Below are positions 13,493 through 63,232 of a DNA stretch of 64,000 bases, one piece after another. A program made the translations under genes and the position numbers. How positions within the stretch are numbered: position 1 is the stretch's first letter; the number at the start of each line of letters is the position of its first letter. The stretch lies in the NCBI RefSeq assembly GCF_041886205.1, contig NZ_CP169031.1, one strand, 5' to 3'. Origin of the DNA: Escherichia coli (lineage in GTDB: Bacteria; Pseudomonadota; Gammaproteobacteria; Enterobacterales; Enterobacteriaceae). The notes under the pieces were generated by a model, which saw only the letters and a program-made list of their open reading frames with translations, was not told the DNA's origin and ran no database searches.

Positions 13493-13509
13493 AAATTTAT
13501 TAGAGCAAA
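13493..13509. promoter_or_regulatory. C1 operator-like site (aaatttattagagcaaa)
   Basis: Match to the asymmetric 17-bp P1 C1 operator consensus ATTGCTCTAATAAATTT (reverse complement), upstream of kilA-repL. Confidence 0.6.
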
Positions 13510-13554
13510 TTTTTCTGACCCGATCCAGATCGGGTTGGACGATCTGCTCAGAAA

Positions 13555-58686: not shown

Positions 58687-59718
58687 CTAATTGCCATCTT
58701 CCAGCAGGCGCACCATTGCCCCTGTTTCACTATCCAGGTTACGGATATAGTTCATGACAATATTTACATTGGTCCAGCCACCAGCTTGCATGATCTCCGG
58801 TATTGAAACTCCAGCGCGGGCCATATCTCGCGCTGCTCCGACACGGGCACTGTGTCCAGACCAGGCCAGGTATCTCTGACCAGAGTCATCCTTAGCGCCG
58901 TAAATCAATCGATGAGTTGCTTCAAAAATCCCTTCCAGGGCGCGAGTTGATAGCTGGCTGGTGGCAGATGGCGCGGCAACACCATTTTTTCTGACCCGGC
59001 AAAACAGGTAGTTATTCGGATCATCAGCTACACCAGAGACAGAAATCCATCGCTCGACCAGTTTAGTTACCCCCAGGCTAAGTGCCTTCTCTACACCTGC
59101 GGTGCTAACCAGCGTTTTCGTTCTGCCAATATGGATTAACATTCTCCCACCGTCAGTACGTGAGATATCTTTAACCCTGATCCTGGCAATTTCTGCTATA
59201 CGTAGCAGGGTATTATAAGCAATCCCAAGAAATGCCAGATTACGTATATCCTGGCAGCGATCGCTATTTTCCATGAGTGAACGAACCTGGTCGAAATCAG
59301 TGCGTTCGAACGCCAATGCCTGTTTTGCACGTTCACCGGCATCAACGTTTTCTTTTCGAATCCGCCGCATGACCAGTGAAACAGCATTGCTGTCACTTGG
59401 TCGTGGCAGCCCGGACCGACGATGAAGCATGTTTAGCTGGCCCAAATGTTGCTGGATAGTTTTTACTGCCAGACCGCGCGCCTGAAGATATAGAAGATAA
59501 TCGCGAACATCTTCAGGTTCTGCGGGAAACCATTTCCGGTTATTCAACTTGCACCATGCCGCCCACGACCGGCAAACGGACAGAAGCATTTTCCAGGTAT
59601 GCTCAGAAAACGCCTGGCGATCCCTGAACATGTCCATCAGGTTCTTGCGAACCTCATCACTCGTTGCATCGACCGGTAATGCAGGCAAATTTTGGTGTAC
59701 GGTCAGTAAATTGGACAT
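58687..59718 (-). CDS. cre: Cre tyrosine recombinase
   Basis: 343 aa starting MSNLLTVHQNLPALPVD, recognised as Cre; loxP lies about 420 bp upstream. Confidence 0.95.
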   Translation of the reverse strand: MSNLLTVHQNLPALPVDATSDEVRKNLMDMFRDRQAFSEHTWKMLLSVCRSWAAWCKLNNRKWFPAEPEDVRDYLLYLQARGLAVKTIQQHLGQLNMLHRRSGLPRPSDSNAVSLVMRRIRKENVDAGERAKQALAFERTDFDQVRSLMENSDRCQDIRNLAFLGIAYNTLLRIAEIARIRVKDISRTDGGRMLIHIGRTKTLVSTAGVEKALSLGVTKLVERWISVSGVADDPNNYLFCRVRKNGVAAPSATSQLSTRALEGIFEATHRLIYGAKDDSGQRYLAWSGHSARVGAARDMARAGVSIPEIMQAGGWTNVNIVMNYIRNLDSETGAMVRLLEDGN

Positions 59719-59725
59719 TTAACAC

Positions 59726-59947
59726 TCAGATAATGGTTTTAAGTAAAGTGTACAGGATCGGCTCTGCCTTTACCTGTTTATGGTTCTCGTCATAGAAACG
59801 CCAGCGACCGCGCGTGCGTTCTATTTTCTCTTCACCGCGCGATAATGACAGTTGGCAACTATCACGATCAAACCCTTTTGCCCGCCAGTAACCACGGTTT
59901 TTCTCAAGCTCAAGATGAGTGGACACTTTAGCAGCTGAATATCCCAT
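59726..59947 (-). CDS. Small ORF in the cre leader (uncertain)
   Basis: 73-aa ORF between the TGATCA cluster and cre; no clear RBS. Confidence 0.25.
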   Translation of the reverse strand: MGYSAAKVSTHLELEKNRGYWRAKGFDRDSCQLSLSRGEEKIERTRGRWRFYDENHKQVKAEPILYTLLKTII

Positions 59948-60043
59948 TTTTCACCTCTGATTGATTGGTGGTGCTAAGTGCGCTACGCGAAATCTGGAGC
60001 ACTAACACTGCCAACTTTTCACAGATTTTACGTAGCGCAACCT

Positions 60044-60118
60044 TGATCAAATGATCAAGTGATCACTATTTGACCTGATAAGGTATTGAACTGTATGGAT
60101 TTACAGGTAAATTGATCA
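60044..60118. promoter_or_regulatory. Cluster of four TGATCA (Dam GATC) sites upstream of cre
   Basis: TGATCA at 60044, 60052 and 60060 (exact 8-bp spacing) and at 60113; consistent with the Dam-methylation-sensitive cre promoter region described for P1. Confidence 0.5.
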
Positions 60119-60136
60119 TGTTCAATAACCCTTAAG

Positions 60137-60170
60137 ATAACTTCGTATAATGTATGCTATACGAAGTTAT
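60137..60170. other. loxP: loxP site
   Basis: Exact ataacttcgtata-atgtatgc-tatacgaagttat. Confidence 0.97.
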
Positions 60171-60213
60171 TAGGTCTGAAGAGGAGTTTACGTCCAGCTG
60201 CGCATAAAAATCA

Positions 60214-60230
60214 ATAATTATTAGAGCAAT
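60214..60230. promoter_or_regulatory. C1 operator-like site (ataattattagagcaat)
   Basis: Consensus match between loxP and coi. Confidence 0.55.
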
Positions 60231-60296
60231 AAATTTTGAGAGAAAAATCCCACTCCACCAGCCAAAAACTGGATTGTTTTTCATAGTTGTTTGACA

Positions 60297-60313
60297 ATTG
60301 CTCTAATAAATTA
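60297..60313. promoter_or_regulatory. C1 operator-like site (attgctctaataaatta)
   Basis: Near-perfect consensus in the opposite orientation to the 60214 site; preceded by ttgaca. Confidence 0.6.
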
Positions 60314-60551
60314 TAGTTTTGCCGCCGTTTCGTAATACGACTTTGGATTCACTATTTAATGTGTCTTCAGCGTTGTAGAGCGGCTCAGAAGGAAATGAGC
60401 AAACAGGGAAACCTTATACAACGGCATTACAGCTATGCATTGCTCATCTTACACACAGCGCAATGTTGTTAGATTACCCCAGCATGGATCATGGGTGAAA
60501 CAGTAGGTCAGAGCTTCAGGCTCTGTGTTGTCAATACAGTGAGGCATAATT

Positions 60552-60761
60552 ATGGCTTTCATTCCACCAACCATCGACGACGTTAGACATTGCTCTAACG
60601 CTTTATCTGTAGACCCCGCCGAAACCGACGCTGCCCGCGCCATTGCTGAACACTACTCAAAGATATCCAATCAGGAGTACCGCATCACCCAAGACGACCT
60701 GGATGATCTCACTGACACAATCGAATATCTCATGGCCACTAACCAGCCAGACTCACAATAA
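60552..60761 (+). CDS. coi: Coi (C1 inactivator)
   Basis: 69-aa ORF immediately upstream of c1. Confidence 0.7.
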   Translation: MAFIPPTIDDVRHCSNALSVDPAETDAARAIAEHYSKISNQEYRITQDDLDDLTDTIEYLMATNQPDSQ

Positions 60762-60871: not shown

Positions 60872-61723
60872 ATGATAAATTATGTCTACGGCGAACAACT
60901 GTACCAGGAGTTCGTCAGTTTCAGGGATCTCTTTCTAAAAAAAGCTGTTGCACGCGCCCAACACGTTGATGCCGCCAGCGACGGTCGTCCTGTTCGCCCG
61001 GTTGTCGTTCTGCCGTTCAAAGAAACGGACAGCATTCAGGCTGAAATTGATAAATGGACTTTAATGGCGCGGGAACTGGAACAGTACCCAGACCTCAATA
61101 TCCCAAAGACTATTTTATATCCAGTGCCTAACATCCTTCGCGGTGTGCGTAAGGTTACAACTTATCAGACAGAAGCTGTGAACAGCGTCAACATGACTGC
61201 TGGCCGCATTATTCATCTGATTGATAAGGACATTCGCATCCAGAAAAGCGCGGGGATCAATGAGCACAGTGCGAAATACATAGAGAACCTGGAAGCAACA
61301 AAAGAGCTAATGAAGCAGTACCCGGAGGATGAAAAATTCCGTATGCGCGTACACGGCTTTAGCGAAACAATGCTGCGCGTCCATTACATTTCCAGTAGCC
61401 CTAACTACAATGATGGTAAATCAGTTAGTTACCATGTGCCGCTATGTGGTGTGTTTATCTGCGATGAAACTCTCCGTGATGGAATCATCATCAACGGTGA
61501 ATTCGAGAAAGCAAAATTTAGCCTTTATGACTCTATAGAACCGATCATCTGCGACCGCTGGCCGCAGGCAAAAATATATCGCCTGGCAGATATTGAAAAT
61601 GTAAAAAAACAAATTGCCATCACTCGCGAAGAGAAAAAGGTCAAATCAGCCGCATCAGTTACGCGCAGCCGTAAAACTAAGAAGGGGCAGCCAGTAAACG
61701 ACAACCCCGAAAGCGCGCAATAG
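60872..61723 (+). CDS. c1: C1 immunity repressor
   Basis: 283 aa starting MINYVYGEQLYQEF; matching operator-like sites are spread across the window. Confidence 0.85.
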   Translation: MINYVYGEQLYQEFVSFRDLFLKKAVARAQHVDAASDGRPVRPVVVLPFKETDSIQAEIDKWTLMARELEQYPDLNIPKTILYPVPNILRGVRKVTTYQTEAVNSVNMTAGRIIHLIDKDIRIQKSAGINEHSAKYIENLEATKELMKQYPEDEKFRMRVHGFSETMLRVHYISSSPNYNDGKSVSYHVPLCGVFICDETLRDGIIINGEFEKAKFSLYDSIEPIICDRWPQAKIYRLADIENVKKQIAITREEKKVKSAASVTRSRKTKKGQPVNDNPESAQ

Positions 61724-61747: not shown

Positions 61748-63232
61748 TTATTCATTAAGCCATGCCAGAGCTTCATCAACCTGCGCTTCGTCTTCGACGC
61801 TAAGCACTTCATCCTGGGGAACATAATCCGCCAGCATAGCGAAACAATATGTATCCCAATGGTCTGGTGAGTGCAGGTTGAGTTTTTTCTTCATATCCTC
61901 CTTACTCATCACCTTCCATTGACCTGCGGAGTTAATCCCTACAGGGATTTTCGACGCTTCCTCAATAGTTTCATTACCCTTATCCAGTCTCATACGACCA
62001 GATTTTACGGCCTCTGCGGCTTGAACGTTGGCATAAGCACGTTTATCAAAGTACAGGCTCTTATCTTCACGGCTATGCATCTTTTTACCCCAGCGTATAC
62101 GCTGTACGGTAATACCATAATACTCGTACATCAGATCCGCCGTTGCTTTACCCAGGCCATCGCCGTCTATCGCTATGGTGATATTTGGGAATCGCTCAGG
62201 ATTACATTCTGCGAAAATTTTGGCGGCAAGCTGCGTTTCTGTAACGTCTGTGTATTCCAGCATTCGATAGTTGATTACACGGCGTTTATTTCGCTGGCCG
62301 GACACCATCATGATATTGATAACGGACTTATCCCGTCCCGTACCACCAGCAACGTCCACACATGCAAGCCAGCCCCATCCTTTTGCAATCTTGACTTTCC
62401 GCCTCGTTGCACGTTCAACCTCATCACGTCCAAGAAGGAAGCCATCCTGTGATTTAGGGAATAGGCCGCGTACCTTAATCATGTACATAGGGTTATCACG
62501 CCCGCCGTACTCCGCCAGCTTCATTTTGATAAATGCTGGCGTTACCAGCGGTGATTCCTCACTGTTAAGCGTGATCGCCGTATAAACGCCATCAGGGTTA
62601 CCAGGACGCTTGGCCAGTTTATGGTGAGTATCGTAGAAATAGCCGCTTGGGCGTGTAGGCTGTGACAGTAATAAGATGCGGTTATCCTGTCCGGTAAGAG
62701 CACCGGTGATGATACCGAAAGCTCTATCACTGACACCGGAGGCTTCATCGATAATATACAGAAGATGATCTGCGTGTTCACCGGCGAGAGCTTCTTCACT
62801 TCCCAGACGAAAGCCCTTCGGTACTACAGTCCATACACCTTTACCAGTAACCTCATAGAAAGCGGTTTCTGTCAGAACAAAATAATCAGCAAGCCATGGA
62901 AAACGGCTGGTGGCAGTAGCCCAGTTTATCTTGATGTACTTGAAAATACCGGTCATTACCTGCTGAATTTTGTTCGCAACGATAATGGCGCGGGCACCGG
63001 GATACATGATTATGAACAACATGATCATGATAGAAGTCATGTCTGATTTCCCGGTACCGTGACCAGACGAAACAGATGTCTTGCTACCCTGTTCCTGCAC
63101 AGACTCAATAATCAGATCCTGCTGCCAGGTAGGTGTTTTGCCGAACAAAACATCAGCGGCCGCAATCCAGTCATAACGATATAGCGCCACCAGCTCGCGC
63201 CAACGTGGATCCGTTACGCAACTTCTGGCCAT
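61748..63232 (-). CDS. pacB: Terminase (pacase) large subunit PacB
   Basis: 494-aa ORF convergent with c1 and overlapping the pacA stop. Confidence 0.7.

What the first reader, a model, noticed from the sequence alone, without database searches (positions are those of the whole stretch)
60044..60118. Three TGATCA sites at exact 8-bp spacing plus a fourth, between loxP and cre
TGATCA occurs at 60044, 60052 and 60060 and again at 60113. These are Dam GATC sites in the same hexamer context used by the P1 pac site, and lie in the cre upstream region, where methylation-dependent promoter control has been described for P1. The periodic array could also be a secondary pacase binding site.
Basis: partly seen in the sequence, partly recalled or inferred. 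Interest (0 to 1): 0.3.

Follow-up and report, generated by a model that had tools for sequence, protein, structure and literature searches.

The report
Known Dam sites upstream of cra-cre
The four TGATCA sites are real and non-random, but they are the Dam methylation sites already annotated in the cre/cra promoter region of phages P1 and P7, so this is an ordinary, already described feature.

Summary
TGATCA occurs at 60044, 60052, 60060 and 60113, and no such triple appeared in 1000 dinucleotide-preserving shuffles. The window is a P1-family phage-plasmid (99% identical to SJ46, phiW39 and P7 here), with loxP at 60137-60170, cra at 59726-59947(-) and cre at 58687-59718(-).

The P1 and P7 GenBank records annotate these GATCs as "Dam methylation sites within the regulatory region of cre". 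The two cra-proximal sites are the two alternative TTGATC -35 hexamers of promoter P3cre (pR1 of Sternberg et al. 1986). The third site is annotated in P7; lab P1 has GTGACCAC there. The fourth site abuts the -10 of the opposite-strand, LexA-boxed promoter P2coi.

In about 100 related viral contigs:
- The three-site array is the majority form.
- Minority forms lose exactly one 8-bp unit or one GATC.
- The fourth site is lost in 13 of 85.
- The proximal site never varies.

Divergent lineages keep at least 2 GATCs near the -10 but not the 8-bp period.

The pacase idea is unsupported. The real pac site has a conserved two-cluster layout (gaps 12, 15 / 96 / 12, 11 bp) inside pacA with an IHF site, and none of that is present here.

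Verdict: already known, low interest.

The parts
60044..60049 (.). TGATCA/Dam site closest to cra. Its GATC lies inside the annotated -35 hexamer of P3cre.
   Evidence: Corresponds to P1 AF234172 'Dam methylation site 3' (nt 106-109) and P7 'site 4'. Invariant in 85 of 85 sampled relatives, and its GATC is retained in all divergent lineages.
60052..60057 (.). Middle TGATCA/Dam site. Its GATC lies inside the alternative -35 hexamer of pR1.
   Evidence: Corresponds to P1 Dam site 2 (nt 98-101) and to the X03453 first-listed putative pR1 -35 at nt 147-152 (its 'altern.' -35 at 155-160 is the cra-proximal hexamer). One 8-bp unit is deleted in 5 of 97 relatives. This site is lost in the pCFSAN058588-type and L114 lineages.
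60060..60065 (.). Distal TGATCA/Dam site of the array. Present in P7 and in most natural relatives, absent from lab P1 (GTGACCAC).
   Evidence: P7 AF503408 'Dam recognition site 2', nt 90-93. Of 97 relatives, 3 carry the lab-P1 form; one further contig, L113, from the LexA+lox scan, reads GTGTTCAC.
60045..60050 (-). P3cre (=pR1) -35 hexamer, TTGATC.
   Evidence: AF234172 regulatory feature at nt 104-109, mapped with P1 position p = window 60154-p.
60025..60030 (-). P3cre (=pR1) -10 hexamer, TAAAAT. It lies 14 nt from the annotated -35 and 22 nt from the alternative -35.
   Evidence: AF234172 nt 124-129 and X03453 nt 175-180; sequence read.
60113..60118 (.). Fourth TGATCA/Dam site. It overlaps the last base of the P2coi -10 and lies 19 bp from loxP.
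   Evidence: P1 and P7 'Dam site 1', nt 37-40. Replaced by TTAATCAT in 13 of 85 relatives. Duplicated in the JK004 type and absent in L114.
60086..60113 (+). P2coi sigma-70 promoter (TTGAAC, 16-nt spacer, TAAATT), reading through loxP toward imcA/imcB/coi.
   Evidence: AF234172 nt 41-68 on the complementary strand; sequence.
60089..60108 (.). LexA box (CTGTATGGATTTACAG core at 60091-60106) in the P2coi spacer, between the array and the fourth site.
   Evidence: AF234172 and AF503408 protein_bind LexA, nt 46-65; pattern check. Conserved in divergent relatives.
60137..60170 (.). loxP.
   Evidence: Sequence; inverted repeat I3; annotations.
59726..59947 (-). cra, 73 aa, unknown function. It is the first gene downstream of the array and P3cre.
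   Evidence: Matches phrog_804 (unknown function) and no Pfam family.
58687..59718 (-). cre recombinase.

Best explanation
The three TGATCA hexamers at 60044-60065 are the Dam-methylation cluster in the -35/upstream part of the sigma-70 promoter P3cre (pR1), which transcribes cra and then cre on the minus strand. Adenine methylation of the GATCs inside the TTGATC -35 hexamer(s) changes how well RNA polymerase uses the promoter. From my recollection of Sternberg et al. 1986, not re-read here, the promoter is more active in dam- cells. If so, it is damped on fully methylated DNA and relieved on unmethylated or transiently hemimethylated DNA, which would link cra/cre expression to DNA entry or replication.

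The fourth TGATCA (60113) is a separate, less constrained site. It sits at the -10/start region of the opposite-strand, LexA-boxed promoter P2coi.

Shown here: the identity of the sites with the annotated P1/P7 features, and their conservation pattern.
Inferred or taken from the literature: the direction and size of the methylation effect, and the link to replication.
For: - The window region is 96-99% identical to P1, P7, SJ46 and phiW39 and aligns base for base.
- AF234172 annotates GATCs at nt 37-40, 98-101 and 106-109 as Dam methylation sites within the regulatory region of cre. It places the P3cre -35 at 104-109 and the -10 at 124-129, and calls P3cre identical to pR1.
- X03453 gives two alternative pR1 -35 hexamers, and both are TTGATC.
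- P7 annotates four sites, including the one at 90-93.
- The title of Sternberg et al. 1986 states regulation by DNA methylation.
- The cluster is non-random.
- The proximal GATC is invariant in 85 of 85 relatives, and every variant keeps at least 2 GATCs.
- Three further divergent lineages with about 70% flank identity keep the proximal GATC 13-14 nt from a -10-like box, plus one more GATC 7-16 bp away.
- In L114 the -35 match degrades to GTGATC while the GATC is kept. That suggests the GATC itself is what is conserved.
Against: - The -35/-10 spacing is non-canonical at 14 or 22 nt, and the consensus scan found no promoter in 59600-60600. The exact way RNA polymerase uses these hexamers is therefore uncertain.
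- I could not read the 1986 paper or the P1 genome paper, so the direction and size of the Dam effect rest on memory.
- The published experiments used lab P1, which has only two array sites.
- The conserved block also includes neighbouring non-GATC sequence (ACGTAGC and an inverted repeat), so the conservation is not specific to GATC.
- The sampled contigs are related to one another, not independent.
Confidence: 0.8

Rival explanations
1. The array acts mainly as a SeqA target. After replication, the clustered hemimethylated GATCs bind SeqA, which sequesters the promoter or delays its remethylation. The effect on cra/cre would then be protein-mediated rather than a direct effect of methyl groups on RNA polymerase. 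This is not exclusive of the main explanation.
For: There are three GATCs within 20 bp, and at least 2 are retained in all lineages. From general knowledge, SeqA needs two or more nearby hemimethylated GATCs and binds the closely spaced GATCs of P1 oriR.
Against: Spacings of 8 and 16 bp do not place the sites on the same helical face. The spacing varies between lineages at 7, 8 and 16 bp. No binding data exist.
Confidence: 0.12
2. The array is a secondary binding site for the P1 pacase (PacA/PacB), which recognises methylated TGATCA/G hexamers.
For: - It uses the same hexamer as pac, and pac hexamers 1 and 2 are 7 bp apart.
- All four GATCs here, and nearly all in divergent relatives, are in TGATCA context, against about 10% of GATCs window-wide (28 of 267).
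Against: - The pac layout is conserved in register in P1, SJ46, JK004 and pCFSAN058588, with gaps of 12 and 15, then 96, then 12 and 11 bp, inside pacA with an IHF site and a cleavage core.
- Here there are 3+1 hexamers 53 bp apart, a LexA box between them, and no IHF-like site.
- L117 has CGATCA and L114 has TGATCG plus a degenerate middle unit.
- The T before GATC is also explained by the TTGATC -35 hexamer.
- The hexamer is the same in all relatives, so no covariation test was possible.
Confidence: 0.03
3. The array is a neutral by-product of slippage of an 8-bp unit, with no function of its own. Only the single proximal -35 hexamer matters.
For: Natural variants lose exactly one 8-bp unit (5 of 97) or one GATC (3 of 97, plus L113 from the second scan). 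Lab P1, which has two sites, is fully viable.
Against: No sampled genome has fewer than two GATCs in the array. Divergent lineages independently keep a second GATC despite about 30% flank divergence.
Confidence: 0.05

Closest known systems
Dam methylation sites of the phage P1/P7 cre regulatory region with promoter P3cre (pR1) (GenBank AF234172, AF503408, X03453; Sternberg et al. 1986, J Mol Biol 187:197)
   Same: Same locus, position and orientation, with near-identical sequence. The four-site layout is exactly as annotated for P7. The -35 TTGATC, the -10 TAAAAT, the LexA box, P2coi and loxP are all in register.
   Different: Lab P1 lacks the distal array site (GTGACCAC against GTGATCAC). Otherwise there is nothing different.
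P1 pac packaging site
   Same: Methylatable TGATCA/G hexamers, some closely spaced.
   Different: pac has 4+3 hexamers in two clusters 96 bp apart, flanking an IHF site and the cleavage points, inside pacA. The array has 3 hexamers at 8-bp spacing plus 1 at 53 bp, in an intergenic promoter region with a LexA box.
Dam-sensitive sigma-70 promoters with GATC inside a promoter hexamer (for example IS10 transposase pIN, trpR, sulA; cited from general knowledge)
   Same: GATC lies within the -35 hexamer, and expression is reported to rise in dam mutants.
   Different: There are two or three tandem GATC-bearing -35-like hexamers rather than one, and the 14/22-nt spacing to the -10 is non-canonical.

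Membership tests
P1/P7 cre regulatory region Dam cluster (P3cre/pR1) | Located between loxP and cra-cre, on the cre-coding strand upstream of cra | tested here: met
   loxP 60137-60170, array 60044-60065, cra start 59947, cre start 59718.
P1/P7 cre regulatory region Dam cluster (P3cre/pR1) | Sequence homology to the annotated P1/P7 region, with GATCs at the annotated positions | tested here: met
   96-99% identity. The alignment puts the window GATCs at P1 nt 37-40, 98-101 and 106-109, and at P7 nt 90-93.
P1/P7 cre regulatory region Dam cluster (P3cre/pR1) | GATC inside the -35 hexamer TTGATC, with the -10 TAAAAT downstream | tested here: met
   60050..60045 reads TTGATC, 60058..60053 reads TTGATC, and 60030..60025 reads TAAAAT.
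P1/P7 cre regulatory region Dam cluster (P3cre/pR1) | Promoter activity depends on Dam methylation | not testable with these tools
   This rests on the title of Sternberg et al. 1986 and on the GenBank notes. The paper's text is not held.
P1 pac site | TGATCA/G hexamers carrying Dam sites | tested here: met
P1 pac site | Two hexamer clusters (4+3) about 96 bp apart with conserved internal gaps | tested here: not met
   pac gaps are 7, 12 and 15 / 96 / 12 and 11 bp in P1 and SJ46; in JK004 and pCFSAN058588 the hexamers that remain occupy the same positions (hexamer 1 is absent from both and hexamer 3 from pCFSAN058588), with the 96-bp core and the 12- and 11-bp right-hand gaps unchanged. Here the gaps are 8, 8 and 53 bp.
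P1 pac site | IHF site and cleavage core between the clusters, located inside pacA | tested here: not met
   No WATCAANNNNTTR match with 1 mismatch or fewer in 60000-60140, and a LexA box lies there instead. The region is intergenic. By position, pacA and pac lie beyond the window end.
P1 pac site | Bound and cut by PacA/PacB | not testable with these tools
   Needs biochemistry or virion-end mapping.
SeqA-bound hemimethylated GATC clusters | Two or more GATCs within about 31 bp | tested here: met
   Three GATCs within 20 bp.
SeqA-bound hemimethylated GATC clusters | GATCs phased on one helical face | tested here: inconclusive
   Spacings are 8 and 16 bp here, and 7 or 16 bp in relatives. None is a multiple of about 10.5 bp. 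The tolerance of SeqA is recalled from the literature and was not tested.
Canonical sigma-70 promoter | -35 and -10 hexamers separated by 16-18 nt | tested here: not met
   The spacer is 14 nt from the annotated -35 or 22 nt from the alternative -35. The consensus scan found 0 sites.

The most novel reading that the evidence does not exclude
The natural form of this control region has three tandem GATC-bearing units. Lab P1 is a minority two-site variant, and there is also an 8-bp unit-deletion polymorphism. Unit number might tune how strongly, or for how long after replication, cra-cre is switched by methylation state. That would be a naturally variable epigenetic dial that the classic lab-P1 experiments under-sampled. 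A weaker version of the idea is that PacA also touches these hexamers late in infection.
Probability: 0.1. Interest if true: 0.3.

Novelty: already known. Interest (0 to 1): 0.08.

Why it matters
It matters little beyond correct annotation. The sites are the published Dam-methylation control sites of the P1/P7 cra-cre promoter.

The comparative additions are modest:
- The three-site array is the common natural form.
- The proximal site is invariant.
- The fourth site is dispensable in about 15% of relatives.
- The 8-bp period is specific to the P1/P7 clade.

These points could guide anyone re-examining Dam control of cre, which was characterised on the two-site lab strain.

Tried and rejected
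- The consensus promoter/terminator scan of 59600-60600 found nothing. The annotated P1 promoters here deviate from consensus, so the scan is uninformative.
- Rfam found no match in 59600-60600 at E <= 1.
- Retrieval of Lobocka 2004, Sternberg 1986, Sternberg & Coulby 1990, and the reviews by Casadesus & Low and by Marinus all failed because the papers are not held.
- Several full-text searches found only citations of the 1986 paper, with no description of its results.
- The covariation test for the pacase idea, comparing pac hexamers with array hexamers in divergent relatives, was uninformative because every relative uses TGATCA/G.
- Pfam gave nothing for Cra or for the extra operon genes of divergent relatives, and PHROGs gave only 'unknown function'.
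- I considered a mirror-image minus-strand promoter around the LexA box (TTGAAC at 60125..60120, 16-nt spacer, TAAATC at 60103..60098). I rejected it as weak because its -10 lacks the final T.
- I did not count variants exactly across the roughly 700 PLSDB plasmids. BLAST identity bands cannot separate the variants, so I used the viral-contig samples instead.

Full report
**Observation.** The sequence reads ...CCT TGATCA AA TGATCA AG TGATCA CTATTTGACC... at 60041-60076 and ...AAT TGATCA TGTTC... at 60110-60123. A pattern search places TGATCA at 60044, 60052, 60060 and 60113.

Neither TGATCA nor GATC is enriched across the window. TGATCA is seen 28 times against 20.45 expected, and GATC 267 times against 249. 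The clustering is what is unusual. In 1000 dinucleotide-preserving shuffles, three TGATCA within 24 bp never occurred, and two adjacent pairs at 12 bp or less occurred in 0.1%. This is the only place in the window with two TGATCA less than 30 bp apart.

**Context.** The window is a P1-family phage-plasmid. Region 59700-60560 is 99.5% identical to phiW39 and SJ46, 98.8% to P7 and 98.0% to lab P1. The surrounding features are:
- cre at 58687-59718 (-)
- cra at 59726-59947 (-)
- loxP at 60137-60170
- coi at 60552-60761 (+)
- c1 at 60872-61723 (+)
- pacB at 61748-63232 (-)

The array therefore lies upstream of cra, not directly upstream of cre.

**What the public records say.** Aligning the window to AF234172 (P1), AF503408 (P7) and X03453 (the 1986 cre sequence) gives the mapping P1 position p = window 60154-p.

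AF234172 annotates the following:
- 'Dam methylation site 1/2/3 within the regulatory region of cre' at nt 37-40, 98-101 and 106-109. These correspond to window 60114-60117, 60053-60056 and 60045-60048.
- The sigma-70 promoter P3cre, noted as identical to pR1, with its -35 at 104-109 (window 60050..60045, TTGATC) and its -10 at 124-129 (window 60030..60025, TAAAAT).
- A LexA box at 46-65 (window 60089-60108).
- On the opposite strand, promoter P2coi at 41-68 (window 60086-60113, TTGAAC-16 nt-TAAATT).

X03453 gives a second candidate pR1 -35, which maps to window 60058..60053 and is also TTGATC. P7 annotates four Dam sites, and the extra one at nt 90-93 corresponds to window 60061-60064.

The only difference from lab P1 within the array is one base: GTGACCAC in P1 against GTGATCAC in P7 and in the window.

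[quoted passage not shown] I confirmed its title from reference lists, but neither its text nor the P1 genome paper is held. My recollection that pR1 is several-fold more active in dam- hosts is therefore marked as memory, not as a result obtained here.

**Comparative evidence.** I ran two scans of the viral-contig collection. One was anchored on the array's conserved flanks, and the other was anchored on the LexA box plus lox.
- Of 97 flank-anchored matches, 89 have the three-site array, 5 lack exactly one 8-bp unit (TTGATCAAATGATCAC), and 3 carry the lab-P1 change.
- One further contig, L113, reads GTGTTCAC.
- No four-unit array was seen, although the pattern allowed for one.
- Across 85 full-length regions (57 haplotypes), the proximal TGATCA never varies and every genome keeps at least two array GATCs.
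- The fourth site is replaced by TTAATCAT in 13 of 85.

Three more divergent lineages, with about 70% identity in the flanks, were also recovered:
- The Salmonella pCFSAN058588 type (L104, L116, L117) keeps sites 1 and 3, 16 bp apart, plus site 4.
- The Cronobacter JK004 type (L105, L109) has two GATCs 7 bp apart plus two near lox.
- L114 keeps sites 1 and 3 (TGATCA and TGATCG) and has no site 4.

In all of them the proximal GATC sits 13-14 nt from a -10-like box. In L114 the -35 match degrades to GTGATC while the GATC survives.

What is conserved, then, is at least two GATCs just upstream of the -10. The 8-bp period and the count of three are not conserved. This fits a methylation-sensing role. 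It does not prove one, because the neighbouring non-GATC sequence is conserved too and the samples are related to one another.

**Mechanism.** The best-supported reading is the published one. The array is the -35/upstream part of P3cre/pR1, which drives cra and then cre, and Dam methylation of the GATCs within the TTGATC hexamers modulates promoter use. Cre also has promoters P2cre and P1cre inside cra, and the C1-controlled P4cre beyond loxP.

The 14- or 22-nt spacing is non-canonical, and the consensus scan finds no promoter here. How RNA polymerase uses these hexamers is therefore not settled by sequence alone. A contribution from SeqA on hemimethylated DNA cannot be excluded.

The fourth TGATCA overlaps the last base of the P2coi -10, next to the LexA box. 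It is best treated as part of that opposite-strand promoter's start region, and its loss in about 15% of relatives argues that it is not essential.

**Pacase idea.** P1 pac uses TGATCA/G hexamers. In P1 and SJ46 the gaps between them are 7, 12 and 15, then 96, then 12 and 11 bp. In JK004 and pCFSAN058588 the hexamers that remain sit at the same positions. All lie inside pacA and flank an IHF site and the cleavage points.

The cra-upstream array has a different spacing (8, 8 and 53 bp), a LexA box in place of an IHF-like site, and an intergenic location. The shared hexamer is the only resemblance, and it is partly explained by the TTGATC -35. Because every relative uses the same hexamer, no covariation test was possible. 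By position, the window ends before pac.

**Verdict.** The feature is real, but it is already described and annotated.

Noticed in passing
window 59979-59996 and 60022-39 (arms); L104, L114, L116, L117; L106 2501-2566: An 18-nt inverted repeat (TGCGCTACGCGAAATCTG / CAGATTTTACGTAGCGCA, 25-nt loop) lies between the array and the cra start, and one arm contains the P3cre -10. The arms are conserved while the loop diverges in distant P1-like lineages. A 79%-identical copy sits in an intergenic region of a Klebsiella conjugative plasmid (pKP-14-2-131-NDM-1) without any GATC array. As RNA it would fold at -28.4 kcal/mol (z = -3.75). It is not annotated in P1, has no Rfam match and occurs only once in the window. 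It could be an operator or a leader hairpin for transcripts from promoters upstream of P3cre.
   Followed up: partly
window 60084-60127: A 21-nt imperfect dyad (TATTGAACTGTATGGATTTAC / GTAAATTGATCATGTTCAATA) encloses the LexA box and the fourth TGATCA. It gives mirror-image TTGAAC -35-like hexamers on both strands. The minus-strand partner has a poor -10 (TAAATC).
   Followed up: partly
window 13496-13545: This is the only other tight GATC cluster in the window (13522, 13528, 13541). It lies in a palindrome, CCCGATCCAGATCGGG, directly after a C1-operator-like sequence (AAATTTATTAGAGCAAA) and before a terminator-like hairpin, in an intergenic gap. The sites are not in TGATCA context.
   Followed up: no
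window 60185-60231: A P4cre-like promoter (TTGATT at 60214..60209, TAAACT at 60190..60185) and a C1-operator-like sequence (about 60215-60231) lie on the far side of loxP, as annotated in P1 (Oc1e 'may control expression of cra and cre'). Transcription toward cra-cre can therefore also cross loxP and the array.
   Followed up: partly
L104 916-2428; L105 1065-2347: In the divergent Salmonella and Cronobacter relatives, an extra 356-aa gene (phrog_7674, unknown function) lies between the GATC cluster and the cra homologue; the Salmonella record also annotates a 68-aa gene there (phrog_19934). The Dam-site promoter region there heads a longer operon.
   Followed up: partly
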